Origin: the human T2T-CHM13v2.0 reference genome, Homo sapiens
DNA: 64,000 bases
Assembly: GCA_009914755.4 (NCBI GenBank)
Contig: CP086569.2
Coordinates: 8,000,001 to 8,064,000 of the forward strand
Direction: 5' to 3'
Part shown: positions 8,290 to 53,794 of the stretch, piece after piece
Layout: every line of letters starts with the position of its first letter
How positions within the stretch are numbered: the first letter of the stretch is position 1
Made by a program: the position numbers and the translations under genes
The notes under the pieces: model-generated
The model's database searches: none
The model's input: only the letters and a program-made list of their open reading frames with translations
Told to the model about the DNA's origin: nothing

Positions 8290-9121
8290 CAGTGCTCTAG
8301 CCTACTCAGTTTCACCTGAGGACAGAAACAAGGCAGGAGAGTCTTGTCACCTGGATTCTGTTCTCAGGATATGTTATAATCTTCTTTGGAGGCAGCGCAG
8401 AGTCAGAAGAGTAACATCATTTGTGTACAGCCTCAAGTAATATGACACTATGTCCACTATAGACAGATTTGAAGAAAAACAGGAGAGTCACACCACCTAG
8501 GTGATAGGCCTAGCAATATGAAATTATCCTCTTTCTTGGCTGACTCCAGAATAAAGAAGAGAGTTGCATTACCTAGGTTTTGCACTCAGTGGTATGTCAC
8601 AATTCCTTTATCTGGCAGGACCTAGGCCAGAGAGGAGTCACATTTCCTAGATGCTACTTCCAGAGATGTCACACAGGCAAAATAGACAAATCTCCTAGCT
8701 AATAGGCTCAGAGATATGTGATAATATCTCTTGTTGGCAGGACCTGGGCAGAAGAGTCACATTATTATAATTCTGACCCAACAATATGTAGCAATGCACA
8801 CATGGAAAACAATTTAAGCAAAAGTTTTTATACCTTGGTAGTCTGCCCAGTGATGTGACATAATCTCTTCATCTTTGAGGGTCACAATTTTTACTGTGAG
8901 CTTGTTACTTGTATCAGTTAATATTTCACGTGTGTGCTGGACCATTGCATGAAACCCTCTACAGCATCAGAGGGCTTTATACATCATGCAAGAGAGTTGC
9001 AAACTACTCTGTGACTCACATGCTCATATGTACTCATAATGTTATATATTGCCTTAAATCGAGATACGATAGAGGTATGATAGTGTATTTCTCTCATTTA
9101 GGCTGAGTTCAGGAATGAGAC
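8290..9121 (+). repeat. Beta-satellite-like tandem array, plus orientation: start of the main array
   Basis: First recognisable monomers caaggcaggagagtcttgtcacctggattctg...gagtcacaccacctaggtgataggcctagcaatatg. Homologous to the ~17260-17480 segment. Confidence 0.7.
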
Positions 9122-9418
9122 TTTTTTTTTTTTTTTGAGACAGAGTCTCACTCTGTCACTCAGGCTGGAGTACATTGGCACAGGGCACAATCTCGGCTCG
9201 CTACAACCTCCACTTCCCAGGTTGAAGTGATTCCCCTGCCTCAGCCTCGCAAGATATGGAATTACAGGTGCCTGCCAGCATTCTCTGCTAATTTTTTTGT
9301 ATTTTTAGTAGAGACAGAGTTTCACTGTATTAGCCAGAATAGTCTCAGTTTTGGCCTCATGATCTGCCTTCCTCAACCTCCCAAGCCTGGGATTACATGA
9401 GTGAGCCACCCTATGCCT
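9122..9418 (-). mobile_element. Alu (older, AluJ/S-like), minus orientation, inserted in the satellite
   Basis: Poly-T then gagacagagtctcactctgtcactcaggctggagtacattggcacagggcacaatctcggctcgctacaacc...cccaagcctgggattacatgagtgagccacc. Confidence 0.85.
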
Positions 9419-12050
9419 GTGAACTCAAGATACATGATAATTTTCAAAACTGAATCACGATTGAACCTGTGGCCAGATCCGCATACAAAAGTCAAAATTC
9501 ATTCTTTGTACGCTTTCCCTTGTTAAACCCAGTACTTCAACAGTGAGCTTTGTAAATTTGCAGTGGTGAAAACTTTTACTTTCAACTGGGTGCGTAATTG
9601 AGAGTGACAATTTTAACGTTTTGCAGCGCCTTGTTATGGAACTCTCTGTATCACCCAAGGAGTTTGTAGAAGAGGAATTAGTGTTGTAAATTTCTGTGAG
9701 TCTTCTACAAAAATGCAACCCAGGATTTTACCTATTGCATTAGTTTAGCGATGGGAGGCAAAATATCTTCTACTGGCTGAATCTCAGTATATGTTTGACC
9801 ATTATGCATGTGAACTGAAGCAAGGTATATGTTATAATCCCATTTGCGGGCAAAAGCTTAGAACAAAGAATGAAATATCTTAGGTGATGTGGCAAGCAAC
9901 ATGTCACAGTGCTTTCTCTAGGCAAAACCTAGAAAGGAGGGTCACATTATCTGTTTGCTGTACTGATTGATATGACACAATTCCACATGTGGAAAGACGT
10001 AGCCAAGGGTTGAGAGCCAAACACCTACAGAATGGACTGAAGATATGTCAAAATACTTTCTGTGGCTCAGGCACAGGCAGGACAGTAGCATCATCAGGGT
10101 GCTAGGCCCACCAGTATGAAAAATTCCCTCTTTATTCAGGTCTCTGGCAGAAGACTAACATCATCTGGGTGCAATAGGTCAAAATTTTCCCTTGTGGCAT
10201 AATTCATAAAAAATGAATAGAGTCACATGACCTAAGCTGGGCTCAGCAATATGTCAAAATCCCACCTTTTTAAAGGCATAGGCCATGGACTCATAGAAAT
10301 GTCTTAATGTCTCCAGTAGGCAGGGCTCTGGCAGATGAGGAGAGTCATATCACCTAGGTGTTTCCCAAAGATTCAGTCACAATGTAACATGTGGGCAGAA
10401 ATCAGGCAAAAGATCCACATCACTTGGGTGCTGGGTCCAGAGATATGTCACAAGGCTCTCTTAGGACAGCATGCAGGCAATACAGTTACATCACATAGGG
10501 CCAGGTTCTCTGCTTATGCCACAGTGTTCCATAAGGGTAAGGCCCAAGGAGGGAGCCACTTCACCCAGGTGATAGGCCCAGAGATTTATCACATTGTCCA
10601 CTAAGAAGCATAGCCCTGGCAAGAGGACCTTCGCCTGTGTTCTTGTCCTAAAACTGTGTCACTGTCCATGTTCGCAGGGCAAAAACAGAGAGCCACATAA
10701 CCTGGGTAATAGGCCAAGAGATATATCACAATGCCCTCCACTGGTCATGGCTCTGGGGAAAAATATCTTCACCTCTGTGCCTGGCCTTACATTATGTCAC
10801 TATCCTTCCTTTGTGCAGGGTCCATTCCAGAGAAGAGGGTTGCATCTCCTATGAGGTAGACATAAAAATATGTCACAAAAATTTTGTTGGGCATGGTGCA
10901 GGCAAGAATGTAAGATCACCTGGGTGCTAGATCCAGTGATATACCACAATTCTTACTGAGAGAAGGTCCCAGGCAGGAGAGTCACATCACCTTGAGATTG
11001 GCCTAGGTAGATATCACAATCCCATATATGGGCTGGAATAAGTCTGAAGAGTGAAATTGCAAAGCTGCTTCCAATGATTTATATCACAATCACATGGTCA
11101 GAAAATTTCACACATGAAATTTGCAATACCACAGGTATCTTGTTTTCATGTGTGACACTTGGCCTCATCCATGTGAGATCATGACAGTCTTGACTGCCAG
11201 CTGGGTTTGCATAGAAGAGTCACAATTTCATCTGTGTGCTGAGCCCTGCTTTGACTCTGTCTTTATAGCCTAAAGACTTTGTAAAATATGTGTGGGTGTT
11301 GTAATCTTTTGTGACCTTTGAGCCAGGAGGTGATCCATGACATCAAACATTTTCATAAACCTAGTTATAATAATCAAAATATTCTCTATTGGCTGAATTC
11401 GCATATGAGACTCACTATCATTCTTGTGAGCCACACCTAGATATATGCCACAATATTTTCTGTTGTTATGAAGCAGGCAGAACAGCCACATTACCTCAGT
11501 TCCGCGACAGAAGTATTTCTATATTCTCTTTGTAGGCAGGGTACTGTCAAAAATGTCACATAACTTGAGTGCTAGTTCCAGCTCTGTGGAACTATGTCCC
11601 TTGTGGGCAGTGTCCAGGCAGAGGAGGAGAGTCATATCACCTAAATGATGGACCCAGATATATTTCACAATGCTCCTGTTGATAAGGCCCAGGCAAGAAA
11701 GTCATATCATTTGGAATCAGTTTTTAGAAATGCTACAATTACCAAAAGAAGCAGGTTACAAACAGGTTAGGGGTGTCATGTAACCTAGATGATTGGTCCA
11801 GATGTATGTTACAATCCTTCCTGAGGATATTGTCACATCATCTGGATGCTGGTTTCAGTTACATCAAATCTCCCTGTGTAAGCAGGACTTCAGCAAGAGA
11901 GGAGGTTCATTTCACCTAGGCAATTGGCCTAGATATATGTCACAATGACCCTTTTGTGCAGTAGGAAGGCTGGAGACTGACCTCACATTGTTGTTAAGCC
12001 CAGCAACATATCACAATCTCCCTGTGGTCGGGGCACAGGCAAAAGCAAAA

Positions 12051-12093
<43 letters not shown>

Positions 12094-15000
12094 CCTAGGT
12101 GCTAATCCAAGTGATATGTTACAATGTTTCCTGTTGACACAACCCAACCTGGGTGAAGTGAAGAGCTACATGTCAAAATGCGTTGTAAATGCAGGGCCAA
12201 AGAACTAGAAGGGAGTCACATCACTTATGTGAAGGACCTAAATATAAGACGCAATTCTTTTTGTAGGCAGGTTTCAGGATGATAATTCACATCACCTGGC
12301 TGATGGTCCCAGTGATCCCCAATCCCACTTAAATATTTTGTTACAATAGGGGAGTCACAGCACCACAGGTGTGCTGAATTCTGGTTCAAGTGTTACCAAA
12401 CCACCTGTGCATGTGATCCATGTATGAGAGTAATTATTTCAACCTTCGACTGCTTTATATGTGTGAGATTTAGTACCTTATTCCCAGGCCATGTTCATGT
12501 GTGAGAATGACAAATGTGTCAGCTAGGCGTTCATAAAAGAGTTCCATTCTCACCTTATTGCTGGTGTCTGTTATGACACTCTTTGTATCATGAATGCTTT
12601 TTATAATACAACTGAGTATTATAATCATTTGTGAACTTTATATAAGTGAAAAACACAGGACTTTACTCATGGCGATGAGAGTGACTATGACAGTAAAAAT
12701 ACATCTGCTGGCTGGGTTCAGGTATGAGAGTTATTATGGTGCATGTTTGCTTAAACCAGGTATATGTCACAGGTTCACCTGTGAGCAGGGCCAAGGCAGG
12801 AGAAGCACATCACTTGGGTGCTGAGCCAGTGATAGAGTATAATCTAATTTTGAGGCTGGACCTAGTCAGAAGAGTCACATTACCTGGGTGCAGCTTCAAA
12901 TAGTATGTCACCAAGACCACTATAGAAAGGGAAGAAGAAAGAGAAAAGAGTCACTCAATCTATTTACTGGGCTCTGCAATATGTAATAAAGCCCACTTTT
13001 GGCAGAGTCTAGAATATGAAGGAGAGTCATATAACCTAGATTTTTCAATAATCAGTATGTCACCATTTCCTTAGTTAGCAGGACGCAGATAGGAGATGAG
13101 AGTCACATTACCTAGGTGTTGTCAAACAATATTTAACAATGTTGTCTGAGGGCAGGGAACTGGCATTGGATATAAATTACCTAGCTTACAGGGCCAGAGA
13201 TAAGTGACAATATTCCCCATTGGCAGGGTCCAGGTGGAAGAGTCACATTATTATGACTCTAAGCCAGCGTTATGTCACAATGTACCCATGGGAGGGAATT
13301 TAAGCTAAAAATTCTCAACACCTGGGTATTAGGCTTAGGAGTATGACAAATCTTCTTATCTTTGGAGGCGACACTATTAACTGTGAACTTGGTGTGTATA
13401 TGAAAGTCACAATTTCACATGTTTTCTGGGCCATTGTATGACACTCTACAACATTTGAAGGCTTTATACAGCATTCATGAGAGTTGCAAACCACTGAAAC
13501 CTACAAGCTTGTATGCATTCACAATCTTAAATATTGCCTTAATCCTAGGCTTAATAGTCAACATCTCTTCTGTAAGCTGTATTTGGAATAATACTCATTA
13601 TTATGCCTGTGAGCTGGATTCAGAAATGAGTCACAATCCCATCTGTGGCCAGATCCACATATGAATGTCACAATTACAGGTTTGTACTTTACTCATTTAT
13701 TAGACTAGGACCTGAACAGTGTGGTTATGTTATGTGGGATGGGGAGAACATTTGCTTTCATCTGGGAGTGTAATTGAGAGTCCCAATCATAACTTTTTGC
13801 AGCTGCCCATCATGAAACCCTCTGTACAACACTAGGAGGTTATACATTATGAGTTAGTATTGTAAAGTTTTGTGAGCTTGGTACAAATATGCAACTCAGG
13901 ACCTTATCTATTCAATTAAGCCTAGAGATGAAAGGCAGCATATCTTCTATTGTCTGAATTTCACTACAAGTTTGACAATCATACTTTAAACAGAAGTAAG
14001 GCATATGCCATATTCCCATTTGAGGGCAAAAAACTAAGTAGGAGGGCAACATCACTTAGCAGCTGTGTTAAACAACATGTGAAAATACCCACCCTGGGAA
14101 GAGCATAGGAATTAGAGTCACATTAAATGGGTGCTAGACTCAGCAATATGAACCATCCAACATGTGGAAAAACAAAAACAAAAACAACAAACAACAACAA
14201 CAACAAAACAGCCAAGGGATGAGAGCCAAAACACCTACATAATTGGCCCACAATCTGTCAAAATACCTTCTGTTGCTTTGGCACAGGCATGAGAGTCACA
14301 CTATCAGGATGCTGGGCACAGCAATATGTCATAATTCTTTCTGTATGCTGGACCAGGAAAAAGAGTATCATTAACTGGGTGCTGGCCTCTGCCATAGGTC
14401 AAAATTTCTGTTTGTGAGCAAGGTTTGAGGAAAAAAAACAAGAGTCATATAACCTGAGTGTTGGTATCAGTAATATGTCACAATTCCCCCAATGTAAAGA
14501 CCAGGCAGAAGAAGAGAGCCATTTCATGTAGGTCGTGGGCTCAGAGCTATATCTCAGTGTCCCTCCTAGGCATGTACGAAGTAGAAAATGAGTCCCATAT
14601 CACCTAGGTGCTTCCCTAGTTATATCACTTGGGTACAGCCTCAAGTAATGTGTCAGCATGCCAAATGTAGATGGGTTAAAGAAAAAAAGAGAATCACACA
14701 ATCTGGTTTCTGGGCTCAGCAATATTTAATCATTCTCTCTCTTGGCAGAGTTCAAGACGAATAGGAGAGACAGGTCACCTAGGTTTTGCACTCAAATAAT
14801 ATGTTACAATGGACATACGTGAAAATTCCTGTTTCCAGAGCCCAGGCAGAAGACACACATTATCATGATTTTGACCCATAATGCTCTTATGGAGAGGAAT
14901 TTAAACAAAAAAGACTCAACACCGGGATACTAGGCCAAGGGATATGACACAATCTCCTCATCTTTAAGGGTGACATCATTAACGTTAGATAGTTGTGTAT

Positions 15001-17990
15001 ATGAGCATCACAATCTCATGTGTGTGCTGACCATAGTATGACACTCCCTACAACATCTGAGAATTTTATACAAGAGGCATGAGAGTAGCAAAACTCTGAG
15101 GCCTATATGGTTATATGAACTCACCATCTTACATATTGCCCTAAACCCAGGTATGACAGTCAACATCTCTCCTATAGGCTGGCTTCAGGGATGAGACCAT
15201 TATTATGCCTGTGAGCTGGGTCCAGAAATGGGTCACCATCACACCTGTGGCCAGATTCATTTCTGAAATTCACAATTCCAACTTTGTGCTTTATTCACTT
15301 GTTAGACTCATGACCTCATCAGTGGGCCTTGTAAATGTAGAATAGTAACAACTTTTACTTTCACCTTAGTTTGTAGTCTAGAGTCATAATCTTAACTTTT
15401 TGCTGGGTTCTGTTATAAAACACTCTGTTCCACCCAAGAAGTTTGTATGATGTGAGTTGGTGTTGTAAACTTCTGTGAGATTTGTACACATTTGCAGTGA
15501 AGAACCTTACCTATTGACATAATCCTAGGGGTGAGAGGCATCCTATCTCCTATTGGTTGAATCCCAATATAAGCTTGATCATTAGGTTTTGAACTGAAGC
15601 AAGGTATATGTCACAATCCCATTTCTGGGCAAAAAAGTAGGCCGAAGGTTAACATCACTTTAAGTGTTCTGCCAAGCCATATATCACAATGCCCTCTCTA
15701 GGCAGAGCCTAAAAATGAGGCTGACATTAACTGTCAGTTTAAGCCAGAAATTTTATACAACCACAAGTGGAAGAATCCTAGCAATATGATGAGAGCCAAA
15801 GTACTTACAGAATGGGACAAAGATATGTCAAAATATCTTCTATGGTTCTGGCAAAGAAAGGAGAGTCTCATGATTAGTGTGCTAGGCCCAGCAATATGCC
15901 ATAATTTCCTCTTTATAAATGACCTAGGCAGAAGAGTAACATCATCTGGGTGCTGGGCCTTGAAATACAGTAAGTGTCCTGTTTGTGGGCATTGTTCAGC
16001 AAGAAGACATAAGTCATATTACCTAAGTGCTGGGCTCATCAACATGTCACAATATTCCCATTGTAAAGGCCCAGAAAGAAGTCATGTCACTTAGGTTATG
16101 GGCTCAGAGATATGGCCCAATGTAACCAGCAGGCATGGCTCAGGCAGAAAAAGACAGTCATATTCCCTAGGTGCTTCTTTAGGTATATGTTGCAATTTAA
16201 TATGTTGGCACAACCCAGGTAGAAAAGCAAAATCACTTTGTCCTGGGTCATGAGATATTCTTAAGTCACCCTTAGAGAAGGACCTAGACAAGAGAGTAAC
16301 ATCACCTAGATGCAGGTTTCACCCTTATGCCACAATGATACATGTGGGCAGAACCAAGCAGGAAGTCACATCAACTAAGTGATAGGCCCAGAGATATGTT
16401 CCAAAGCCCTCCTTAAAGCATGGCCCTGACAAAAGAGTACCATCACTTTTGTGCCTTGCCTAGCAATATGTCACTATTCAAGTCAGCAGGTCCCAAGCAG
16501 AAGAGCCATATCACCTACATGATATGTTCTGTGATATGTAAAAATGCCCTTTTTTGAGCATGGCCCTTGCAAAAGAGTATCATCACCTGTGTGCCTGGCC
16601 TAGAAATATGTCTCTGTTCTTCCCTGTGCTGCAGGACCGCTTCCAGAGAGGAGAGTTATGTCTTCTAGATGATGGACACAGTCATATATCACAATGATGT
16701 CTGTGGGCATGGTGTAGGCAAGAATGTAACATCACCTAGGTGCTGGATCCAGTGATGTCACCATTCTTGCTAAGCATGATCCAGGCAGAAGAGTCACATC
16801 ATTTCAAGGTTGACCCATGTAGATATCAAAATCCCATATATAGTCTAGATCCAGTCTGAAGAATGAAATCATGCAGGTGCTTGCCATAGATTTATATCAC
16901 AAAGTTCTGGAATTATAGGCATTAGCCACTGTGCCCGGCCTTTGAGTACAACTTTGTGTGAGATTTAGTACTTTATTTGTACCTGTTCTTGTGAGAGAAT
17001 AAAAATGAGGTCAGCTGGGTGTGCAACCAAGAGTCACAATTGCATCTGGTTGCTGCTGTTCCCTGTTATGACACTCTTTGTATTACTCAGGATTTATATG
17101 ATATGCCTGAGTTTCATAATCCTCTGTGAAATTCATGCAATTATGAGACCAATTACTTTACTTATTGCTGTAAGACTGACTATGAGATCCAAAATATCTC
17201 TCCCTTCTGGATCCAGGTATGAGAGTTATATTAGTGCATGTGAGTTGAACCTAGGTATATGTCACAATTTCACCTGTGGGCAGAAACAAGGCAGGAGGGT
17301 CTCATCCCCTAGATTCTGAGCTCAGGATGCATTATAATCTTCTTTGCAGCCAGGGCAAGTCAGAAGTGTTATATCACCTGGGTAAAGCCCCAAATAATAT
17401 GACACCATGTTCCCTGTAGACAGGGTGTGAAGAAAAAGAGGAGAGTCACACCACCTTGGTGCTGGGCTTGGCAATATGTAATAATCTCCTTTTTTTGCAG
17501 ACTCCATAATAAAAGGAAGAGTTGCATTACCTAGGTTTTGCACTCAGCATCATGTTGCATTACTTAATGCAACATAATGCACTCAGCATTATGTCAGTAC
17601 CATAATGCACTCAGCATTATGTCATGATTAGTTTAGTAGGCAGGACCCTGTGATCAGGGCCTAGAAAAGACAATCAAATAATTCATGGGCTGGGCAAAGG
17701 CTGTTGTCTTAATTACACTCTCAGTAATATTTGGAAATAAGTCTCACATCCCACACAAGTCCTGGTTTTGTACATGTGAGTCAAATCTTTCTATGAGTTT
17801 TTGTATATGTGAGTATATGAGTTTTGGTATATGTGAGTCAACTCTTTCTATGAGTTGGGTCAAAGTAGTCGAGTCACAATCTCAACAATGGGTAAGATTT
17901 ATGTGTAAGAACTCCAATCGCACTTGAAGATTGTGTTTCAGTAGGGGAATTACAGCATGACAGGTGTGCTGAATCATGATTTAAATATTG

Positions 17991-18290
17991 CTCACTCCTT
18001 CAATCCCGACACTTTGGGAGGCCAAGACAGGAGGATCACTTGAAGCCAAGATTTTAAGACCACCCTGGGTAACATAGCAAGACCCTATCTCTACAAAAAA
18101 TTGAAAAATTATCCAGGCATGGTGGTGCATGCCTGTTGTCCTAGCTACTCAAGAGGCTGCAGAGGGAGGATCGCTTGAGCCCAGGAGTTTGAGGTTACAG
18201 TGAGCTGTGATTGTCCCACTGCACTTCAGCATGGGCAACAGAGTGAGACTTGTCTCTGAAACAAACCAATACTAAATTAAATAAAACATA
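17991..18290 (+). mobile_element. Alu (5'-truncated by ~12 bp, older subfamily), plus orientation, inside the satellite
   Basis: ctcactccttcaatcccgacactttgggaggccaagacaggaggatcacttgaagcc...gcccaggagtttgaggttacagtgagctgtgattgtcccactgcacttcagcatgggcaacagagtgagac. Confidence 0.85.
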
Positions 18291-18510
18291 AGCACAAATA
18301 CACACTCACACACATACAAGAGTATATATATATCCTAAAGTTTATTCCACAGTAACCATAGTAATATATAGAGATTTTTCTAATTCTTTTTACAGCTGCA
18401 TAATAATCGGTTGTGTTAATCTTCATAGTTTATTTAACTATTCTGTGTTATTGAATATTTGGATTATTTGCAATCCACTTGCTATTAAAAACGGTGGTTC
18501 AATAAAAAAA
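18291..18510. other. Unclassified ~220 bp non-satellite insert just 3' of the Alu, ending in a short poly-A; the satellite resumes in phase afterwards
   Basis: Sequence ataagcacaaatacacactcacacacatacaag...ccacttgctattaaaaacggtggttcaataaaaaaaatt has no satellite motifs. The array resumes with accaaagcacctgtgaatctgatctatgtatgagag, homologous to 12390. Confidence 0.4.
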
Positions 18511-19439
18511 ATTACCAAAGCACCTGTGAATCTGATCTATGTATGAGAGTAATTATTTCAACCTTTGACTATTTTATATGTCAGATATAGTACCTCATTC
18601 CTAGACCCTGTTCAAGTTTGAGAATGACAATCATGTCAGATAGGTGTGCATACAAGAGTCACATTCTCAACTGGTTGCTGGTCTCTGTTATGACACTTTG
18701 TACCACTAAGTGTTTATGTGATAGGCCTGAGGGCTATAATCCTTTATGACCCTTATACAAGTGAAAAATCCAGGACTTTACCCATGACCATAAGACTGGC
18801 TGAGAGTCAAAATATCTCTACTGGCTGGGTCCAGGTGTGACAGATATTATTATAAATGTGTATTTAACTCCGGTATATGTCACAATTTCACCTGTGAGCA
18901 GGGACAAGGCAGGAGAGTCACATTACCTGAGTGCTGAGCCAGTGATACACTATGATATCATTTGCAGCCTGGTCTTATTCAGAAAGGTCATATCACCTAG
19001 GTAAAGCCTTAAATAGTACGTCACCAAGCCCATGACAGACAGGGAAGAAGAAAAAAAGGAGAGTCACTCCACTAAGGTGCTGGGATCTTCAATATGTAAT
19101 AATTCCCTCTCTTGGCAGAATCTAGAATATGAAGAAGAGCCACATCACCTAGGTTTTGCAATCAGTAGTATGTCATAATTTCTTTTGTCGTCAGGACCCA
19201 GGCAAGACATGAGAGTCACATGACCTAGATTAGTTAGCCAAATGATATTTCAGAATATCCTCTGGGGGCAGAGGCAGGAGAGAAAAATTGCCTAGCTTAC
19301 AGGCCAAAAGATATGTCATAATATTCCCCATTGTCAGGGTCCAGGCAGAAGAGTCATATTATTATGATTCTAACCTGGAGATATGTCACAGTTCATCTGT
19401 ATGTAGGAATTTATGCCAAAACATCTCAACACCTTGGTA

Positions 19440-23120: not shown

Positions 23121-25450
<2,330 letters not shown>

Positions 25451-25892
25451 AAAGGACTCAGCGGTGCTTTATATCCCTCTAGAGGAGCCTGTTTTTTAAT
25501 CAATAAAACCTGATATACCTCACCACTTCTTGCCCCCAACCTATATATCCCCCTCTTTAGAAAACCCTAAAATGGTTATAGAGTAAGCACAAGCATACCC
25601 ACAAAAATGTTAGATCAAGGTGTAGCTCCTGAGCTGGCAAGAAGTGGACTACATTTTCTGTACCCAGAATATCTCATAACAACTTCTATGAATTCTAAGG
25701 GCTCAAGGAGAATTTAGCAGTAAACCAAGAGCAGAGTGCTTGGTTGAATAAGGCCATGAAGCATGCATATACCACCTGTCACCCTCCTCAAATATTATTC
25801 TAGAAATTACTATTACTGAAAATTCTCCATGCACTTATAAAGGAGCTCCATGACAAAATGGTAAGCATACTGAAAAGTGTGCTTGGACAAAC
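25451..25892 (+). pseudogene. MT-RNR1: NUMT-derived 12S rRNA, 3' ~440 bp
   Basis: ggactcagcggtgctttatatccctctagaggagcctg...gtaagcatactgaaaagtgtgcttggacaaac matches human ...catggtaagtgtactggaaagtgcacttggacgaac. Confidence 0.85.
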
Positions 25893-25965
25893 AAAAGTGT
25901 AGTTTAACCCAAAGCATCTGGCTTACTCCCAGAAGATGTCATCACAACCTGATCACATTGAGCCA
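25893..25965 (+). pseudogene. MT-TV: NUMT-derived tRNA-Val
   Basis: aaaagtgtagtttaacccaaagcatctggcttactcccagaagatgtcatcacaacctgatcacattgagcc lies between the 12S and 16S copies. Compare human cagagtgtagcttaacacaaagcacccaacttacacttaggagatttcaacttaacttgaccgctctgagc. Confidence 0.7.
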
Positions 25966-27510: not shown

Positions 27511-27585
27511 TGTTAAGATGGCAGAACCTGGCAGTTTCATAAAACTTAAAGTTTATAATCAGAGGTTCAACTCCTCTTCTTAACA
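27511..27585 (+). pseudogene. MT-TL1: NUMT-derived tRNA-Leu(UUR)
   Basis: gttaagatggcagaacctggcagtttcataaaacttaaagtttataatcagaggttcaactcctcttcttaacaac matches human gttaagatggcagagcccggtaatcgcataaaacttaaaactttacagtcagaggttcaattcctcttcttaacaaca. Confidence 0.85.
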
Positions 27586-27587
27586 AC

Positions 27588-27956: not shown

Positions 27957-28026
27957 AAAGAAAATATGTCTGACAAAATAATTACTTTGACAGAGTAAAC
28001 AATAGGTGTTAAAATCCTCTTATCTC
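27957..28026 (+). pseudogene. MT-TI: NUMT-derived tRNA-Ile
   Basis: agaaaatatgtctgacaaaataattactttgacagagtaaacaataggtgttaaaatcctcttatctc matches human agaaatatgtctgataaaagagttactttgatagagtaaataataggagcttaaacccccttatttc. Confidence 0.8.
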
Positions 28027-28097: not shown

Positions 28098-28098
28098 A

Positions 28099-40600: not shown

Positions 40601-41516
40601 ACAACACCTATGTGCTGAGCCAAGTGATATGTTCCAATGCTTCCTGTGGGCACAACCCCAAAAGGAGAATCATGGCACATTTGTGCAGTACTGAATTACG
40701 TGTCACAATGCGCTGTTTGCGCAGGGCCAAGGCAATAGAAGGAAGTCATATCACTTGCATGATGGACGTAGATACAAAACACAATTATTTTTGTAGGTAG
40801 GTTTCAGGCAGACAATTCACATCACCTGGGTGATGGTCCCGGTGATACATAAAATTTATCTTTATGGACAGAACAAAGGAAGATGGTGTTTATTCTATAT
40901 ATGGTACAATTTCATCTGTGTCCTGGGCCTAGAAAAGACAGTCAAATTATTCCTGTGCTGGGCAAAATTAACCTGTGACAATCACACTCTCAGAAAGGTT
41001 CAGAAAGAATTTTTACATCACACAGAAGTCCTGGCTTTTTTTAGGTGAGTCAAATCTTTCTATGAGTTGGGCCGAAGTAGAAGAGTCACAATCTCAACCT
41101 TGGGCAAAATCCATGTATAAAAGCCCAAATCTCACTTGAAGATTGTGTTCCAGCAGGGGAGTCAGAGCACCACATGGGTGCTGAATAATGGTTCAAATAT
41201 TACCAATCCACCTGTGAATCAGATCCATGTGTGAGAGCTATTATTTCAATCTTCAACTTCTTTTTATGTGTGAGATTAAGGACCTCATGCCTAGGTCCTG
41301 TTGATGTTTGAGAATAACAATCGTGTCAGCTAGGTCTGCATATAAGAGTCACATTCTCACCTGGTTGCTGGTCTCTGTTATGACACTCTTTGCACAATTA
41401 AGGCTTTATATGATATACCTGAGTCTTATAATCCTTTGTGAACTTTATACAAGTGAAAAACCCAGGACTTTACCCCTGGCTATGATATTGGCCATGATAT
41501 TCAAAATATCTCTACT

Positions 41517-41808
41517 GGGCCAGGCGTGGTGGCTCACGTCTGTAATTCCAGCACTTTGGGAGGCCAAGGCGGGTAGATCACAAGGTGAGGAGATTGAGAC
41601 CATCCTGGCTAACATGGTGAAACCCCATCTCTACTAAAAAATACAAAAAATTAGCCAGGCGTGGTAGTGGGCACCCGTAGTCCCAGCTACTCAGGAGGCT
41701 GAGGCAGGAGAATGGCGTGAACCAAGGAGGCAGAGCTTTCAGGGACCAGAGATCGCACCACTGCACTCCAGCCTGGCCTACAGAGCGATACTCTGTCTTA
41801 AAAAAATA
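41517..41808 (+). mobile_element. Alu (AluS/Y-like), plus orientation, with imperfect target-site duplication in satellite
   Basis: ggccaggcgtggtggctcacgtctgtaattccagcactttgggaggccaaggcgggtagatcacaaggtgaggagattgagaccatcctggctaacatggtgaaacc...gtcttaaaaaaataaa. Flanks aaatatctctactgg | Alu | aaatctattggctaagtccaggt. Other units read uninterrupted caaaatatctctactggctgggtccaggt. Confidence 0.9.
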
Positions 41809-43694: not shown

Positions 43695-43994
43695 TTTTTT
43701 TAAATTTTATTATTATTATACTTTAAGTTTTAGGGTACATGTGCACAATGTACAGGTTTTTTACATATGTATACATGTACCATGTTGGTGTGCTGCACCC
43801 ATTAACTCGTCATTTAGCATTAGGTATATCTCCTAATGCTATCCTTCCCCGCTCCCCCACCCCACAACAATCCCCAGAGTGTGATGTTCCCCTTCCTGTG
43901 TCCATGTGTTCTCATTGTTCAATTCCCACCTATGAGTGAGAATATGCGGTGTTTGGTTTTTTTGTCCTTGCGATAGTTCGCTGAGAATGATGGA
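43695..43994 (-). mobile_element. Severely 5'-truncated L1 (3'UTR end only, ~300 bp), minus orientation, with ~21 bp target-site duplication
   Basis: Poly-T then ttattatactttaagttttagggtacatgtgcacaatgtacaggtttt...ggtgtgctgcacccattaact..., the reverse complement of the L1 3' end. Identical actggtatgtcacaatttctt on both sides (43675-43694 and 43995-44015). Confidence 0.9.
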
Positions 43995-46900: not shown

Positions 46901-48780
46901 GATTCATGTCTTTTGGATACAGTGCTTAAAATGCTACACTTCTCATTGGAAGTAGGGTTCAGGCAGTAGAGGAGACACATAACCTAGACAGTGCGTCTAG
47001 AGATATGTTATAATATTTTCTGCAAAAACTGTTAACACAGGAGAGTCAAATTAACGAGGTTCTTGGCACAGGTCTATGTCAAAATGTCATCTGTGGGCTA
47101 TAACTAGGCAGGATTATTAAATCACGCAGGAGCTGGGCAAAGGTACATGTTACAATAACACCTGTGGAAAGGTTCAGTGATGAGAGTCACCATCCTGCAC
47201 ATGTCCTGGATCCAGGTACAAGAGTCATTATTAGGCCTTTGTTGTGGTCTCAGGTATATGGCTCAATATCACCTGTGGGCAGGGAGAAGAAAGGAAAGTC
47301 ACATCGCTTGAATGGGTGTTGGTCTAGTGAAATGTCACCAGCCTCCTTGTGGGCAGGACCCTGGAAGAAGAGTCACATCATGTGGATTCTGGTAGCAGTG
47401 ATATATCTGAATCCACACTGTGGGTAGTGCTTAGGAAGGAGAGGAGACGAACTTCACATAGACTATTAGTCTTCATATGTGTAAAATGGCACCTATGTGC
47501 AGGACAAAGGCAGGAGAGTGACCTCATCTTGGTGCTGAGTTCAGCAATATGTCACAATGTCTCTGGTGGTCAGAGCCCAGACAAGAGAAAAGAAACATCA
47601 CCTAGGTGCTGAGCCAAGTGATATGTTACAATGCTTTCTATTGGCAGAACACTCCTCCCCCCAAAAAAAGAGTCACATCATCTGGGTACAGGACGCTGTA
47701 TTGTCACAATGCGCTATAAGGGCAGAAGCAAGGCAGTAGAAGAAAGTCACATCATTTTACACGATGGACCTAGATAAAAGCCACGATGCTCTTTTTAGGC
47801 AGGGTTCAGGCCAAGATTTTACATTAGCTGGTTGTTGGTACCAGTGATATGTAGAAGTGCCCTTTGTTGCATTGACAAAGAAGGTGCTATATAATGCTTA
47901 GGTGCTTGGTGCATGTATGTCACAGTTTGAACTGTGCTATGGGCCTAGAAAACAGGGTGAAAACCTTCAGAGGCAGGTCAAAGTCATACTTCTCAATCAT
48001 ACACTTGAAAATGTTCAGAAATAAGTTTGACAGTCCCACAAAAGTCCTGGCTTCAGGCATGTGAATGAACACCTCCTATAAGTTGGGTTCAAGTACTACA
48101 GGAGTCACTATCTCAACAATGGGTAAGATCCATATATAAGAGCCCCAATCCCACTTAAAGATTGTGGTCCAGTAGGAGAGTCAAAACACTGCAAGTCTGC
48201 TGAATCATAATTCAAAAGCCACCAAGCCACCTGTGGGTCATATTCATGTATGAATGTAACAATTTCAAGCTTCTACTGTGTACGTGTGTGAGATTTAGTA
48301 CCCTATTCCTAGGCTTTGCTCATGTATGAGAGTGACAATCGTGTCAGCTGTGTGTGGATCCAAGAGCCACAATAGCACCTAGGTGTCGGTGCCTGTTATG
48401 ACACTATTTGTGTCACTCAGGTTTTATATGATATGCCTGAGTAAGTAGCATACTTCCCTCTGAATTCTTACAGGTAGAACATCTAGAACTTTACCCATGG
48501 CCATAAGACTGGCTATGAGAGTTGATATATTTCCCCTGGTGGGGTCTAGGTATGAGACATATTATTGTGCATATGAGCTAAATCCAGGTTTATGTCACAA
48601 TCTCACTTTTGGATAGAAATATGACAGAAGAGTCACATCATCTGGGTAATGAGCCAGGGAAACATTTTAACCTCCTTTGTAGGCAGGAGCCATGCAGAAG
48701 AGTCATAGAGCATGGATAAAGTCTCCAACAATATGTCATCATGCCCACTGTATACAGGGCTGAGAAAAAAGCGGATACTC

Positions 48781-49113
48781 GGCTGGGCATGTGGCTCATG
48801 CCTGTAATCTCAGCACTTTGGGAGGCTAAGTTGATTTGATCACCTGAGTTCAGGAGTTCAAGACCAACCTGACCAAGATGGTGAAACACCGTCTGTACTA
48901 AAAATATATAAAAAAATAGCTGGGTGAGGTGGCAAGTGCCTGTAATCCTACCTACTTGGGAGGCAGAGGCAGGAGAATCGCTTGAAACTAGAAGGCGAGG
49001 TTGCAAAGAGCTGAGATTGTGCCCTTGCACTGCAGTGTGGGTGATAACAGCAAAACTCCATTTCAAGGGAAAAAAAAATATATATATATAGTGGATATAT
49101 ATATCGTGGATAG
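48781..49113 (+). mobile_element. Alu (AluS-like), plus orientation, with (TA)n-containing tail, in satellite
   Basis: ggctgggcatgtggctcatgcctgtaatctcagcactttgggaggctaag...gcaggagaatcgcttgaaactagaaggcgaggttgcaaagagctgagattgtgcccttgcactgcagtgtgggtgataacagcaaaactcc, then aaaaaaaaatatatatatatagtggatatatatatcgtgg. Confidence 0.9.
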
Positions 49114-52100
49114 TCACACGCTCTGGGTGCTGGGCTCAGCAATATGTTATAATTACCTCTTCCGGCAGAGTGCAGGACAAAAGAGAGTCACATCACCTAG
49201 GTTTTCCACTCAGTGGTATGTCACAATTTCATCACTGGACAGGATTCAGGCAGGAGAGGAGAGTCATATTACTTAGATGCTAGATCTAGCGATATGTCAC
49301 AGTGTCCCCTGTGGGTAGGGCACTGGCAGGAAAGACACATCATCTAGTTAATAGTCCAGAGATATGTGATAATATTCCCTGTTCCCTGAGTTCAAGTAGA
49401 AGAGTCACATTGTTATCATTCTGACTCAGTGATATTTCTCAATGCACCCATGGGAAAGAACTGAAATAACATAGTCTCAACACCGGGTTACTAGTTCTAG
49501 TGACGTGACACAATCACCTTATCTTTTAGGGTAGCACCTTTAATTGTTAGCTTGGTGTGTATATGTAAGAGTCACAATCTCACATGTGTTCTTCTTCAGC
49601 TTATAACACAGTCTAAAACATCTGAAGGCTTTATGCAACATGAATGTGAATTGCAAACCATTCTAAGGCCTATGTGCTCATATTGACCCAAAATCTTACA
49701 TATTGCCCTAAATTCAGTTATGATAGTTAACATCTCTCTTATAGGCTGGGTTCAGACAGGACACATCTTGTTATGTCTGTGACCTGGTTTCAGAAAATAA
49801 TCACTATGTGACATGTACCAAGATCCACAGATGAAAGTCACAATTCCATCTTTCTAATTTATTTATTTGCTAGACTAAGACCTTCAACAGTGGGCTTGTT
49901 AATGTGAGATAGTGACAACTTTTGCTCCCACCTGCATGTGTAATCAAGAGTCACAACCTTAACCTTGTGCTGGGCCCTGTTATGAAGGTCTGTGTACCAG
50001 CAAAGGAGTTTACAGTGTATGAGTTATTATTGTAAACATCTGTGAGCTTTGAACACTATGCAACTCATAACCTTATATATTGCATTAAGCTTACTGATGA
50101 GAGACAAAATACCTATGACAGGTGGAATCCCAATTTAAGTTTGATTATCATGCCTGTGAAATGAAGCAACATAAAATTTATAATCCCATTCACAGAAAAA
50201 TAAACTTGGCAGGAGTGTAGCATAATTTAGCTGCTGTGAATATGTCACAATGCTTTCTCTAGGCAGGGTCTAGTAATGAGGGTTACATTAACTGTGTGCT
50301 GGAACCAACAATATGACACAATGCTATATACATATATAAAACAACCCAGACAAATGTTGAGAGCAAAACCCCTAGAGATTTGCCGAAGGTATGTAAAAAT
50401 ACTTTCTGTTGCACTGGCACAGGCAGGAGAGTTATATCATCAGGGTGGGGGGCCCAGCAATATGCCATAATTCTCTCTTTATGCAGGACACAGGTAGAAG
50501 AGAAATGTCATCTGTGTACTGGGTCCTGCAATACATCCAACATCCTTTTCATGAGCATGGTTTGGGAAAAAAAAAGAAGAGTCACATTACCCAAGGATTG
50601 GGCTTAGCAATATGTCACATCATCCCATTGTAAAGACTCAGGCAGAAGAAAAGAGTCACATCACATAGGACACGGGCCCAGATATATGGCCCAGTGTCCC
50701 AAGAAGGCATTGGTCAGGCAGAATAGAAGAGTCATATCATGTAGGTGCTTCCCTAGGTATATGACACAATCTAATATGTGAGTTGAAGCCAGGCAGATGA
50801 GTCAAATCAGCTTGATGGTAGGTCTATAGATATGCTGCATGTCTCCTTAAGAAAAGACCCAGGTCAGAGAGCTACAACAAATACTTGCAGGTTCTGACCT
50901 TATGTCACAATGCTCCTTGTGGATAGGGCTCCAGCAGGGAGTCACATCACCTAGGTGATAGACCTAGAGACATATCACAGTGTCATCCTTGTGGCATGGT
51001 CCTTGTGAAAGAGCTCCATCTCCTGTTTGCCCGGCCTAGCAATATGTCACTATCAAGGTAAGCAGGATCCAAGGTGGACAGCAACATCACCTATGTGATA
51101 GGCCCAGAGATTTTTCACAGTGCCCTCTTCAGGACACAGCATTAGCAAAAGAGTACCATCACCTGTGTGTCTGGCCCAGCCATATGTCACTATCTTCCAC
51201 TGTGTACAAGGCTCATTCTAATGAACAGAGTTATATCACCTAAGTGGTTGAAACAGTGATATGTCACAATTATTCATTTGCATGTTGCTCAGTCAAAAAT
51301 GTAACATAATCTGGGTGCTGGATCTAGTGATATGTCACGATTCTTACGGAGAGAAAGGCCCAGGCAGGAGAGTCACATCACCTAGAGGCTGGCCCAGGTA
51401 GATATCATAATGATATATGTGGGCTGGAACCAGTCTGGGGAGTCAAATCACACAGGTGCTGGGCAAAGATTTATACCACAATCACACTGGCAGAAAATTC
51501 CTGAGTTGAGATTTACAATACTACACATGTTCTGTTTTCATGGGTGACAGTTGGCTTTATATATGTGAGAGGGTGACAGTCCTTACTTTCAGCTGGGTGT
51601 GCATATGAAACTCATAATTTCACCTTTCTGCTTGGTTCCATTATTACACTCTCTGTACAAACCAAGGGCTTTATAAAATATCTGAGGCTATAATAATCTT
51701 CTGTAGCCTCCTTTTCTATCAGAAAGAGATTTAATCACTGATGTTTCTAAAGCAAGTTAGGAAACTCAAAATTACTCCTATTTGTGGGATCTATATATGA
51801 TGGTCATTATTATTCCTGTGAGCTGTAACTAGTAAATTGTGTGTATCACAATTTACTCTGTGATAACGAAAGAGTTACAACAGCCAAGCCACTTAAATGC
51901 TGAGCCAGAAATGCCTATTGTTGTCAGTGTCCAGGCAGAAGAGGAGAGAATATTACCTCAATGATAGGACCAGATATGTTTCAAAATGTCTCCTGTTGAA
52001 AGGACTAGGCAAGAGAGTCATATGATTTGAATGGAGTGCTTATAAATGCTACAATCCCCAGTAGTACCAGAGTTCAGGCAGGAGAGGAAAGTCTGGGTAA

Positions 52101-53794
52101 CCTAGATAATGGATGCAGAGACATGTTACATCCTTCCTGAAGGTATTGTTAAGACATGAGAATCTAATCAGCAAGGTGCTCAGCATAGGTGAATGTCTAA
52201 ATATTATGTGTGGGCTACACCTCAAAAATTGATTAAATCACTGAGAAAGTTGGGTAAAGGTATATGTCACAAAAACACAGGTGGAAAGTTCCAGGAATGG
52301 GAATCACCATCATGCATATATCTTGACTCCAGGTTTAAGAGACATGATTAGTCCTCTTATCTTGTCTCAGGCATATGGCACAATATGACCTGTGGGCATA
52401 CAGAAAGCAGGAACGTCACATCCCCTGGGTGAGTGCTGGTCCAGTGAGATGTCACAATTCTTCTTGTGGGCAAGACCCTGAAAGAAGAGTCACATCACCT
52501 GGATGCTGGTTTTAGTGATACATCAAAACTCCCCCTGTGGGCAGGGCATAGGAAGGTGAGGAGACTCACTTCACCTAAGCAATGGGCCTAGATATATATC
52601 ACAATGGCCGTTATGTGCAGGAGCAAGGTATGAAAGTGACTTCCTCTTGCTTTATTTAGCAATATATCACAATCTCTCCTGTGTTCAGTGTGAGGCAAAA
52701 GAGGAGCAACATCACCTAGGTGCTGAGCCAAGTGACATGCTATAAAGCTTCCTATTGTCAGAACCACAAACTCAGAGTAGCATCACCTGGGTGCAGTACT
52801 GAGTTATGTGTCACAATGCACCATAAGTGGAGGGCCAAGGCAGAAGAAGGGAGTCACATCACTTACATGATGAACCTAGATACAATCCACAATGCTTTTT
52901 ATAGACAGGGATTAGGCAAAATTTCACATCACCTAGGTGCTGGTCCAAATGATATATAAAAGTGCTCTTTGTAGGCAGGTCCAGGCAAATTTTCTTAGGT
53001 GTATGGTCCACATATCTCACAATTTTATCTGTGGTCATTGCCTAAAAAGGAGAGTAAAGTTATTCAGGAGCTGGGTTAACTTTTATGTCCTAATCACACA
53101 CTAAGAAATATTCAGAAATACGTTTCAAAGTCCCAAACATGTCCTGGCTTCGTGTATTTCAGTCAACATATCTTGTGAGTTGGGTCAAATCAGAGGAGTC
53201 ACAATTACAGCAATGGGCAAGATCCACTTATAAGATGTCCAATCACACATGAAGATTGTGTTGCAGTAGGGGAGTCATAGCCTCATAGGTGAAAGTCCTT
53301 ACTGTCAGCTGAGTGTGATATGAGACTCACAATTTTACCTTTCCTCTAGGTTCTGTTATGCCACTCCATACAAGGCAAGGGCTTTGTAAAGTATCTGAGG
53401 CTATTATAATCTTACGAGACCTTTTTACCAGAAAGAGATCAAAGACATTACTCTTGTTTCTAAAGCAAGTTACAAGAATCAAAATTACTCCTATTTGTGG
53501 GGTCCACATATGATACTCATTATCAGGTCTGTGAGTTGTGCCTAGGTATATGTCAAAATTTACTCTGTGGTAATGAAAAAGGCCCGACAGCTACATAACC
53601 TAAATGCAGAGGCAGGAATTGTTCCAATAGTTTCCTCATAGGCAAGCTCCTGACAGAAAAGCCCTATAACTTTGGAGCTATGCCCAACTGTATGGCACAA
53701 TGTCCTTTGTGGGCAGTGTCCAGGCTGAAGAGGAGAATCATATAATGTAAATGACAGGCCCCAAGTACGTCACAATGCCTCCTGTTGAAAGGGC

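What the first reader, a model, noticed from the sequence alone, without database searches (positions are those of the whole stretch)
8290..53790. 45 kb degenerate tandem array with ~70-78 bp monomers and irregular multi-kb higher-order repeats
The gagtcacatcacctaggtgctgg and atatgtcacaat motifs recur every ~70-78 bp. Kilobase segments recur with higher identity: 12370-13360 matches 18540-19440. A distinctive non-monomeric block (tgtatgagagtaattatttcaac...gtcagctaggtg..gagtcacaat...ctgttatgacactctttg) appears at 12375, 17960, 32965, 36500, 41185 and 48205. That gives unit lengths of roughly 5.3-5.6, 3.5, 4.7 and 6.7 kb after removing insertions. So the higher-order units are not uniform and suggest unequal crossing-over between sub-blocks, such as the A/A' internal duplication at 12880-13400 versus 14600-15000. 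From memory the monomer resembles the beta-satellite (Sau3A, 68 bp) family, but the consensus was recalled, not aligned.
Basis: partly seen in the sequence, partly recalled or inferred. Interest (0 to 1): 0.5.

Follow-up and report, generated by a model that had tools for sequence, protein, structure and literature searches.

The report
Decayed beta-satellite relative beside zinc-finger pseudogene
The 45-kb region is an old, decayed tandem repeat related to primate beta satellite, lying next to a dead zinc-finger gene; this arrangement was described for primate zinc-finger gene clusters in 1998, so it is real but ordinary.

Summary
A profile built from the window finds 298 head-to-tail monomers, all on the + strand, from 8347 to 53794. 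Their modal spacing is 71 bp (range 68-78). Multi-kb repeats sit on top of this period.

The monomer consensus is 75-77% identical to canonical 68-bp beta satellite. I recovered the canonical sequence independently from primate-contaminant contigs. The window's array lacks the Sau3A site, the conserved GATCAGTGC block and the 68-bp period. It is therefore a diverged relative, not a canonical member.

The "non-monomeric" blocks are strongly diverged monomers. They mark a hierarchy:
- a ~1.6-1.9 kb unit;
- a ~4.7-5.2 kb unit made of three of these;
- irregular copies, plus duplications of 15 kb or more.

The best copy pairs are only 77-79% identical. Substitution looks neutral, so this is a fossil array.

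A second arm in inverted, mirror-image register (1-3541) lies across a decayed C2H2 zinc-finger exon (~6880-8080). The same 71-bp variant flanks KZNF genes in marmoset and macaque. This matches the beta-satellite/ZNF-cluster architecture of Eichler et al. 1998.

The 9.2-kb gap in the array is a ~6.9-kb mitochondrial DNA insertion (NUMT) carrying a nested L1. The chromosome could not be determined. Interest is low.

The parts
8347..53794 (+). Main array: 298 detectable ~71-bp monomers, all in one orientation. It is interrupted by a NUMT/L1, four Alus and one short L1 fragment.
   Evidence: nhmmer profile hits; k-mer periodicity; motif counts against shuffles
1..3541 (-). Inverted arm of the same satellite, cut by the window edge. 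Monomers lie at 11-976, 2558-2655 and 3181-3519. Read in reverse complement, it mirrors the start of the main array.
   Evidence: 18 minus-strand profile hits. In inverted alignments 3068-3538 matches 8549-8993 and 1-1227 matches 9565-10700, both ~70%.
6880..8080 (+). Decayed C2H2 zinc-finger exon (KZNF pseudogene remnant) between the two arms. It has frameshifts and stops, and there is no KRAB exon in the window.
   Evidence: TRF 84-bp period at 7146-7936; translations; Pfam zf-C2H2 and zf-H2C2_2; best protein hit 'ZNF736 [Callithrix]', 65% identity; motif scan
12317..12744 (+).
   Evidence: gap clustering; motif CTGTTATGACACTCTTTG
16908..17238 (+).
18494..18857 (+).
32735..33366 (+). Block D copy 4
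36435..36860 (+). Block D copy 5
40939..41517 (+). Block D copy 6, followed by an Alu
47878..48571 (+). Block D copy 7
53053..53528 (+). Terminal block with similarity to both D and C
11050..11424 (+). Block C copy 1. Other copies: 31050-31428, 34587-34962, 39237-39626, 46200-46573, 51489-51897.
13351..14048 (+). Block pair A + B, separated by one monomer, copy 2. Other copies: 8871-9060 with 9440-9809 (split by an Alu), 14961-15593, 29194-29830, 37548-38101, 42350-43155, 44400-45070, 49403-50220.
28880..36504 (+). Multi-unit segment duplicated as 44049-53293. The sub-alignments are 28880-33353 with 44049-48582 and 33353-36504 with 50211-53293.
   Evidence: 77.4% and 78.4% identity, K2P 0.27 and 0.26; strongest offset peaks at 15.2 and 16.75 kb
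9441..14311 (+). Segment with its closest copies at 37733-43389 (offsets 28.3-29.1 kb)
   Evidence: 79.2% and 79.3% identity
19449..23121 (+). NUMT part 1: ND6 part, tRNA-Glu region, cytochrome b, control region, tRNA (22533-22604), 5' half of 12S
   Evidence: Pfam Cytochrome_B E=1.2e-61; Rfam mtDNA_ssA and tRNA, both below gathering score; G-poor composition; mitochondrial-code translation
23122..25448 (+). L1 fragment nested in the NUMT's 12S. Its 5' 1.5 kb is inverted: the RT ORF (23697-24641) reads on the minus strand, and the 3' part ends in an A-run at 25441.
   Evidence: Pfam RVT_1 E=9e-29; inverted and direct matches to other L1 pieces; A-run
25449..28659 (+). NUMT part 2: rest of 12S, tRNA (25893-25961), 16S, tRNA-Leu (27512-27585), ND1 start with about 0.6 kb missing, tRNA-Gln (minus strand, 28024-28098), tRNA-Met and ND2 start
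   Evidence: Rfam LSU rRNA 97 bits and tRNAs; ARAGORN tRNA-Gln; mitochondrial-code translations; a weak Pfam NADHdh match (16.2 bits, below Pfam's cut-off of 27)
9130..9410 (-). Alu inserted between blocks A and B of the first unit
   Evidence: blastn with a recalled AluY consensus, 77.6%
17990..18256 (+). Alu insertion
41518..41806 (+). Alu insertion
   Evidence: 88%
48791..49066 (+). Alu insertion
43699..43991 (-). About 290 bp of L1 3'-end inserted in the array
   Evidence: 90% inverted match to 25161-25453 and 87% to 2169-2453

Best explanation
This is a fossil satellite block. It is an ancient ~71-bp relative of primate beta (Sau3A) satellite.

Proposed history:
1. The monomers grew by unequal exchange into a ~1.6-1.9 kb unit: one strongly diverged block plus about 18 monomers.
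2. That unit tripled into a ~4.7-5.2 kb higher-order unit, in the order A/B, C, D.
3. Irregular copies followed, lacking or doubling sub-blocks.
4. Multi-unit segments of 15 kb or more were duplicated.
5. Homogenisation then stopped. The array has since decayed neutrally and collected a NUMT, L1 pieces and Alus.

The array forms one arm of an inverted pair around a dead zinc-finger exon. It belongs to the family of beta-satellite-like blocks interspersed among primate KRAB zinc-finger genes.

Its most likely 'role' is passive. It is a recombination-prone, heterochromatin-type spacer that accompanied, and possibly mediated, duplication of KZNF gene cassettes. It is not a sequence under selection today.

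Shown here: the anatomy, the homology to beta satellite, the hierarchy, the inverted arm, the absence of detectable constraint, and the presence of the same variant in marmoset and macaque KZNF loci. Inferred: the order of events, the age, and any part in gene-cluster expansion.
For: Monomers and period.

Homology to canonical beta satellite:
- 14 contaminant contigs are pure 68-bp arrays with one GATC per monomer and the GATCAGTGC block.
- PMC2671837 names GATCAGTGC as the conserved beta-satellite block.
- The window consensus is 75-77% identical to the canonical consensus, far above shuffles. The canonical-only profile hits 75 window monomers.

Hierarchy:
- The four block classes recur in a fixed order.
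- Blocks B, C and D share a ~200-bp core and the motif CTGTTATGACACTCTTTG, spaced 1.6-1.9 kb apart.
- The series of monomer lengths is conserved between copies, for example 70,72,68,72,77,71 and 111,71,74,76,70,74,73,76,71.

Age and decay:
- The best copy pairs have K2P 0.245-0.27; adjacent units have 0.35-0.43.
- CpG observed/expected is 0.08.
- The Alus and the NUMT are not shared between copies.

No constraint: mismatch rates between paralogous monomers follow base composition (G/C positions 0.2-0.33, A/T positions 0.1-0.2). The ATATGTCACAAT core is no lower than other A/T positions.

Inverted mirror arm and ZNF remnant.

A family present at many loci:
- 12 metagenome contigs carry paralogous pieces, 76-89% identical, with the same length barcode.
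- The same GATC-less 71-bp monomers lie beside KZNF genes in marmoset (L118) and macaque (L119, both orientations).

Against: - The chromosome is unknown. The ZNF remnant's nearest named proteins are ZNF736, ZNF679 and ZNF735. From memory, their human namesakes lie at 7q11.21 rather than 19p12. Identity with the published 19p12 blocks is therefore not shown.
- Eichler 1998 itself could not be read. The comparison of inverted symmetrical blocks rests on my memory of its abstract.
- Three KZNF loci from other primates had no monomers within 10 kb (L085, L117, L120), so the association is not universal.
- The constraint test has limited power and is biased at monomer ends by local-alignment ascertainment.
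- The age estimate depends on an assumed neutral rate.
Confidence: 0.8

Rival explanations
1. It is a 'beta-composite' array in the T2T sense: beta-satellite monomers interspersed with LSau elements. Blocks A-D would then be decayed LSau copies rather than diverged monomers.
For: The T2T centromere preprint describes beta-composite arrays with interspersed LSau. PMC2671837 describes beta-satellite plus LSAU tandem units. The blocks recur every 1.6-1.9 kb among the monomers.
Against: Block consensus sequences contain repeated CACCTGGGTG...GAGTCACAAT pairs in the monomer arrangement. They give 8 monomer-profile hits of at least 5 bits, against 0 in shuffles. The blocks are 39-44% GC. No LSau reference sequence was available, so this was not tested directly.
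Confidence: 0.12
2. It is a canonical beta-satellite array that is still being homogenised, like those at acrocentric short arms, 1q12 or 9q12.
For: Homology of the monomer to beta satellite; higher-order structure.
Against: TRF finds no array. Copies are at most 79% identical. The Sau3A site and the GATCAGTGC block are absent. The period is 71 bp. CpG is depleted. Old retroelement and NUMT insertions lie inside the array.
Confidence: 0.02
3. The array is kept by selection as a functional element. For example, it could be a binding platform for a zinc-finger protein, or a heterochromatin nucleation or boundary element for the neighbouring KZNF genes.
For: Two monomer cores (ATCACC.. and ATATGTCACAAT) carry the highest information content among the 298 monomers. 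The same variant is retained beside KZNF genes in marmoset and macaque. A KZNF protein is reported to bind beta-satellite at 4qA (PMC4787827 abstract).
Against: Between paralogous copies the core positions change as fast as other A/T positions. The overall K2P of 0.25-0.43 is what long neutral decay gives. High information at the cores can be inherited from the active phase of the satellite, and is inflated by profile-based detection.
Confidence: 0.06

Closest known systems
Beta-satellite blocks interspersed in the primate KRAB-ZNF cluster at 19p12 (Eichler et al. 1998, Genome Res 8:791)
   Same: - A large block (36 kb net, 45 kb gross) of beta-satellite-related monomers with higher-order structure.
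- Immediately next to a ZNF91-related zinc-finger (pseudo)gene.
- A second arm in inverted, mirror-image register.
- An ancient origin.
- Presence in New and Old World monkeys.
   Different: The chromosome was not established; the nearest named ZNF relatives point as much to the 7q11.21-type cluster. The paper could not be read here, so monomer length, block classes and unit sizes could not be compared with its figures.
Canonical beta (Sau3A) satellite, 68-bp monomer (Waye & Willard 1989; Repbase/Dfam BSR/Beta)
   Same: Homologous monomer (75-77% consensus identity). It shares ACATCACCT.GGTG and ATATGTCACAATGCCC. The organisation is head-to-tail and higher-order.
   Different: - Modal period of 71 bp.
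- No Sau3A site.
- No GATCAGTGC block.
- Lower GC (45% in the window's monomers, against 47% in my canonical contigs and 52% in the T2T figure).
- Copies at most 79% identical.
Beta-composite arrays (beta satellite + LSau), for example the D4Z4/DUXY neighbourhoods
   Same: Monomer runs are regularly interrupted by a longer repeated block, giving kb-scale units.
   Different: Here the interrupting blocks look like diverged monomers. LSau identity was not tested, and no DUX-type ORF is present.

Membership tests
Beta (Sau3A) satellite, canonical | Tandem head-to-tail monomer of 68 bp | tested here: not met
   Modal spacing is 71 bp, with a median of 71 over 234 adjacent pairs and a range of 68-78. 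Canonical contigs give a period of 68. The definition is quoted.
Beta (Sau3A) satellite, canonical | One Sau3A (GATC) site per monomer | tested here: not met
   27 of 298 monomers contain GATC (2.0 per kb). Canonical contigs have 170 GATC in ~170 monomers (14.7 per kb).
Beta (Sau3A) satellite, canonical | Conserved block GATCAGTGC in most monomers (PMC2671837) | tested here: not met
   0 exact copies and 2 with one mismatch in 45 kb. Canonical contigs have 99 exact and 134 within one mismatch in ~170 monomers.
Beta (Sau3A) satellite, canonical | Sequence homology of the monomer to the family consensus | tested here: met
   53/69 (76.8%) and 53/71 (74.6%) identity. Score is 35 against a shuffle mean of -9 and maximum of 7. 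The canonical-only HMM hits 75 window monomers and 0 in a shuffled window.
Beta (Sau3A) satellite, canonical | Higher-order repeat organisation | tested here: met
   Multi-kb offset peaks; in-register identity of 70-79% against ~57% out of register; conserved monomer-length series.
Beta (Sau3A) satellite, canonical | GC-rich (about 52%) with dense CpG | tested here: not met
   Window monomers are 44.8% GC with CpG observed/expected 0.08. The T2T figure of 52% is quoted. The difference is consistent with methylation-driven decay.
KZNF-cluster beta-satellite blocks (Eichler 1998 type) | Block lies beside a ZNF91-related KRAB-ZNF gene or pseudogene | tested here: met
   The ZNF exon remnant ends at 8080 and the first monomer starts at 8347.
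KZNF-cluster beta-satellite blocks (Eichler 1998 type) | Inverted blocks with symmetrical higher-order structure | tested here: met
   The arm at 1-3541 on the minus strand mirrors the first unit of the + array in the same block order. The published description is recalled from the abstract, not read.
KZNF-cluster beta-satellite blocks (Eichler 1998 type) | Location in 19p12 | not testable with these tools
   No primate reference genome could be searched by DNA. Protein hints are mixed: ZNF736/679/735-like. A marmoset ZNF429-like locus (L118) and a macaque ZNF679 locus (L119) both carry the variant.
KZNF-cluster beta-satellite blocks (Eichler 1998 type) | Multi-locus family predating the anthropoid radiation | tested here: met
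   Paralogous HOR pieces occur in 12 metagenome contigs at 76-89% identity. The same 71-bp GATC-less monomers occur in marmoset and macaque KZNF loci.
Beta-composite array (beta satellite + LSau) | Interspersed LSau elements | not tested
   No LSau reference sequence was available. Blocks A-D show monomer-derived structure instead.

The most novel reading that the evidence does not exclude
The 71-bp variant, which lacks the Sau3A site and the GATCAGTGC block, would be a separate and very old sister lineage of beta satellite. It would be specific to KZNF clusters, with a three-tier unit structure. It would mark the inverted junctions of the duplications that built more than one primate KZNF cluster, the 7q11.21-type as well as 19p12. 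That would extend the 1998 model beyond 19p12.
Probability: 0.15. Interest if true: 0.35.

Novelty: already known. Interest (0 to 1): 0.15.

Why it matters
The result matters mainly as a clean negative. The finding is a real feature, but a previously described kind of one.

It illustrates how a satellite can freeze in place. Once homogenisation stops, its nested amplification history stays readable. Such blocks sit at the edges of KZNF gene cassettes and are plausible substrates for the duplications that expanded this gene family.

A practical point also follows. These arrays are too diverged for Tandem Repeats Finder, and they lack the diagnostic Sau3A site. Only profile-based or RepeatMasker-type annotation will label them.

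Tried and rejected
- TRF with default settings found no array.
- Full-text searches for printed beta-satellite sequence strings found only unrelated primers. PMC4787827 prints no BSR sequence.
- Four papers are not held: Eichler 1998, Waye & Willard 1989, Huntley 2006 and the journal version of Altemose 2022.
- A search for a KRAB exon in all six frames found none.
- No gene encoding the marmoset 'ZNF736' protein P0001 is on record, so its locus could not be examined.
- The Pongo ZNF735 (L085), M. fascicularis (L117) and Aotus ZNF679 (L120) loci have no monomers within 10 kb.
- The test for reduced substitution in the conserved monomer cores was negative.
- The simple 'L1 insertion' reading of the 9.2-kb gap was rejected once Rfam hit mitochondrial rRNA and tRNAs.
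- Alternation of two monomer length classes was tested and rejected: lag-1 and lag-2 correlations of monomer length are about 0.
- A literature search for BSat/ZNF/chr19 in T2T papers found nothing.

Full report
**Setting.** The window is primate DNA. Alu elements are scattered through it, and an 84-bp periodic stretch at 7146-7936 is a run of C2H2 zinc fingers. GC content is about 40-43% across the claimed region. It dips between 20 and 28 kb.

- Exact 8-mer matches within 8290-53790 pile up at offsets of 70-77, 140-152 and about 217 bp. A shuffled copy gives about 1 per offset.
The longer motif behaves the same way.
- I built a profile from 25 anchored monomers and iterated it with nhmmer. 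It finds 298 monomers on the + strand between 8347 and 53794, and none on the + strand outside that range.
- Start-to-start spacing has its mode at 71 bp (60 cases). There are further peaks at 70 and 76 (35 each) and at 74-75. The median over 234 adjacent pairs is 71.
- Tandem Repeats Finder reports nothing for the array. Out-of-register self-alignments are only about 56-60% identical, which is too diverged for it.

**Higher-order structure.** After masking insertions, 11-mer matches show sharp offset peaks against a median of 8 per 50-bp bin. The peaks lie at 1.6, 1.9, 3.5, 4.45-5.15, 6.1, 7.0, 8.2, 11.7-12.2, 14.2, 15.2 (the strongest, 251), 16.75, 28.2 and 29.1-29.4 kb.

The stretches the monomer profile does not recognise fall into four recurring classes:
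- A, about 250 bp;
- B, about 350 bp, one monomer after A;
- C, about 375 bp;
- D, 430-630 bp.

Their order along the array is: A/B, C, D | A/B | A/B, D, D | [insertion] | A/B, C, D | C, D | A/B, C, D | A/B | A/B, C, D | A/B, C, D-like.

It shows they arise from sub-blocks of about 1.6-1.9 kb being left out or doubled. The series of monomer lengths is itself conserved between copies, for example 70,72,68,72,77,71 between B and C, and 111,71,74,76,70,74,73,76,71 between C and D. That confirms the register independently.

The copy placed at 17960 starts near 18494, after an Alu. A partial copy at 16908-17238 was missed.

**The blocks are diverged monomers, not foreign DNA.**
- Real blocks give 18 weak profile matches, against 0.3 per shuffled set.
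- Consensus sequences built from the 6-8 copies of each class give 8 matches of at least 5 bits, against none in 50 shuffled sets.
- These consensus sequences visibly contain CACCTGGGTG followed about 10 bp later by GAGTCACAAT. That is the monomer's own arrangement.
- B, C and D share a core of about 200 bp that includes CTGTTATGACACTCTTTG. That motif recurs at 1.6-1.9 kb spacing.

I infer that the 4.7-5.2 kb unit is a triplication of an older 1.6-1.9 kb unit.

**Age and mode of growth.**

| Comparison | Window segments | Identity | K2P |
|---|---|---|---|
| Closest pairs, far apart | 28880-33353 / 44049-48582 | 77.4% | 0.273 |
| | 33353-36504 / 50211-53293 | 78.4% | 0.257 |
| | 9441-11956 / 37733-40173 | 79.2% | 0.245 |
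| | 12695-14311 / 41802-43389 | 79.3% | 0.244 |
| | 12393-13337 / 18512-19448 | 78.5% | 0.256 |
| Adjacent units | several pairs | 67.5-72% | 0.355-0.433 |

The last growth steps were therefore duplications of multi-unit segments, not only local slippage. At commonly used mammalian neutral rates, a K2P of 0.25 between copies implies tens of millions of years. This is an inference and depends on the rate assumed.

None of the Alus, and neither the NUMT nor the L1 pieces, is shared between copies. CpG observed/expected is 0.08.

I tested for constraint by comparing paralogous monomers position by position. The overall mismatch rate is 0.19. G/C positions run at 0.2-0.33 and A/T positions at about 0.1-0.2. 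The ATATGTCACAAT core is no slower than other A/T positions. The low values at the monomer ends come from local-alignment ascertainment. The array looks like a neutrally decaying relic.

**Relation to beta satellite.** No printed consensus could be found in the paper library. I therefore scanned the bacterial/archaeal genome collection for two ATGTCACAAT motifs spaced one monomer apart.

Fourteen short contigs turned out to be pure tandem arrays; several carry very low coverage values in their record names. I take them to be primate, presumably human, contamination. TRF gives them a period of 68 and this consensus: GATCAGTGCAGAGATATGTCACAATGCCCCTGTAGGCAGAGCCTAGACAAGAGTTACATCACCTGGGT.

They carry one GATC per monomer and the block GATCAGTGC. 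PMC2671837 names that block as the conserved beta-satellite block. The 68-bp definition is quoted.

Against this independent reference:
- The window consensus is 74.6-76.8% identical, with a score of 35 against a shuffle maximum of 7.
- A profile made only from the canonical contigs hits 75 window monomers and none in a shuffled window.

Homology is therefore established. Three defining features fail: the period (71, not 68), the Sau3A site (27 of 298 monomers) and the GATCAGTGC block (0 exact). I therefore call it a diverged relative of beta satellite rather than a canonical member.

**Surroundings.**
- Eighteen monomers lie on the minus strand at 11-976, 2558-2655 and 3181-3519.
- Read in reverse complement, this left arm mirrors the start of the main array. 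3068-3538 matches 8549-8993 (monomers plus block A). 2456-2744 matches the A/B junction of other units. 1-1227 matches 9565-10700 (block B plus monomers). All are at about 70% identity.
- Between the arms (3542-8346) lie Alus, a (TTTC)n run and a decayed zinc-finger exon at about 6880-8080. The exon has several frameshifts and stops.
- No KRAB exon is present in the window.
- A stitched translation of the exon finds 'zinc finger protein 736 [Callithrix jacchus]' at 65% identity. ZNF679-, ZNF735- and ZNF736-like proteins follow at 44-47%.

**The same thing elsewhere.**
- Twelve metagenome contigs that contain the D-block motif carry pieces 76-89% identical to window units. They have the same length barcode and a gap of about 600-666 bp at the D block. 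Some are closer to a window unit than any unit inside the window, so whole blocks were copied to other loci.
- In marmoset, 22 monomers lie 5 kb downstream of a ZNF429-like gene (L118). The median spacing is 71 and 1 of 22 has GATC.
- In Macaca thibetana, 43 monomers lie in both orientations at the 5' end of ZNF679 (L119). The median spacing is 71 and 2 of 43 have GATC.
- Three other KZNF loci had none within 10 kb.
- From memory, the marmoset record (51.7 Mb) corresponds to the homologue of human chromosome 19, and the macaque record (185 Mb) to the homologue of human chromosome 7. If so, the variant occurs in both cluster types.

[quoted passage not shown] 1998. From memory of that abstract, blocks of about 25 kb of inverted beta-satellite with a symmetrical higher-order structure bound the ZNF duplications, which date to about 50 million years ago. 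The window fits this on every point I could test.

The chromosome remains open. The paper itself could not be read.

The T2T preprint distinguishes simple from 'beta-composite' arrays, the latter with LSau. I could not test LSau identity for blocks A-D. Their monomer-like content argues against it.

**Verdict.** The attribution is correct as a family resemblance but not as canonical membership. The kind of feature is already known. Interest is low.

**The gap in the array.** The 9.2-kb gap (19449-28659) is a NUMT of about 6.9 kb in mitochondrial gene order:
- part of ND6;
- cytochrome b (Pfam E=1e-61);
- the control region;
- tRNA;
- 12S;
- tRNA;
- 16S (Rfam, 97 bits);
- tRNA-Leu;
- ND1, with about 0.6 kb missing;
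- tRNA-Gln;
- tRNA-Met and the start of ND2.

An L1 fragment (23122-25448) is nested in 12S. The two 12S parts add up to about 961 bp. The L1's 5' 1.5 kb is inverted, as twin priming would leave it.

Noticed in passing
window 19449-23121 and 25449-28659: An old NUMT of about 6.9 kb in mitochondrial gene order, running from ND6 and cytochrome b across the control region to the start of ND2. About 0.6 kb of ND1 is missing. It was inserted into the satellite after the higher-order copies formed, because it is absent from all paralogous units.
   Followed up: yes
window 23122-25448: An L1 fragment nested inside the NUMT's 12S rRNA. Its 5' 1.5 kb is inverted: the RT ORF at 23697-24641 reads on the minus strand. 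The 3' part is on the plus strand and ends in an A-run at 25441. This is a twin-priming-like structure. The colinear L1 copy in macaque locus L117 shows that the inversion is specific to this insertion.
   Followed up: partly
L009, L018, L030, L047, L049, L052, L061, L066, L075, L076, L080, L081, L083, L084: Short contigs (several with very low coverage in their record names) in deposited bacterial and archaeal assemblies and MAGs are pure canonical 68-bp beta satellite. Examples are Actinomadura cremea JCM 3308, Streptomyces malachitofuscus JCM 4493 and a Legionella sp. They are almost certainly human or primate contamination.
   Followed up: partly
window 2775-3053 and 9130-9410: Each of the two inverted satellite arms carries an Alu near block A of its first unit. 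Both Alus are on the minus strand, so they are independent insertions rather than copies made by the inversion. An A-rich target in that block may attract insertions.
   Followed up: partly
window 6880-8080: The zinc-finger exon remnant is most similar to a marmoset protein annotated ZNF736 (65% identity), then to ZNF679- and ZNF735-like proteins (44-47%). From memory their human namesakes map to 7q11.21, so the window may come from that cluster rather than 19p12.
   Followed up: partly
L119 3-12604 and L118 41797-44565: Macaque ZNF679 and marmoset ZNF429-like loci carry the same GATC-less 71-bp monomers. In macaque, three runs alternate in orientation (+, -, +) within 13 kb, right at the gene's 5' end.
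   Followed up: partly
window 5880-6101: A (TTTC)n microsatellite of about 210 bp, with an overlapping 20-bp repeat, lies upstream of the ZNF exon remnant and next to an Alu at 6107-6349.
   Followed up: no
window 53808-55327 and 1228-2453: L1-derived sequence directly abuts the outer end of the main array (53808 onward). More L1-derived sequence interrupts the left arm (1228-2453). No monomers are found beyond 53794 up to the window end.
   Followed up: partly
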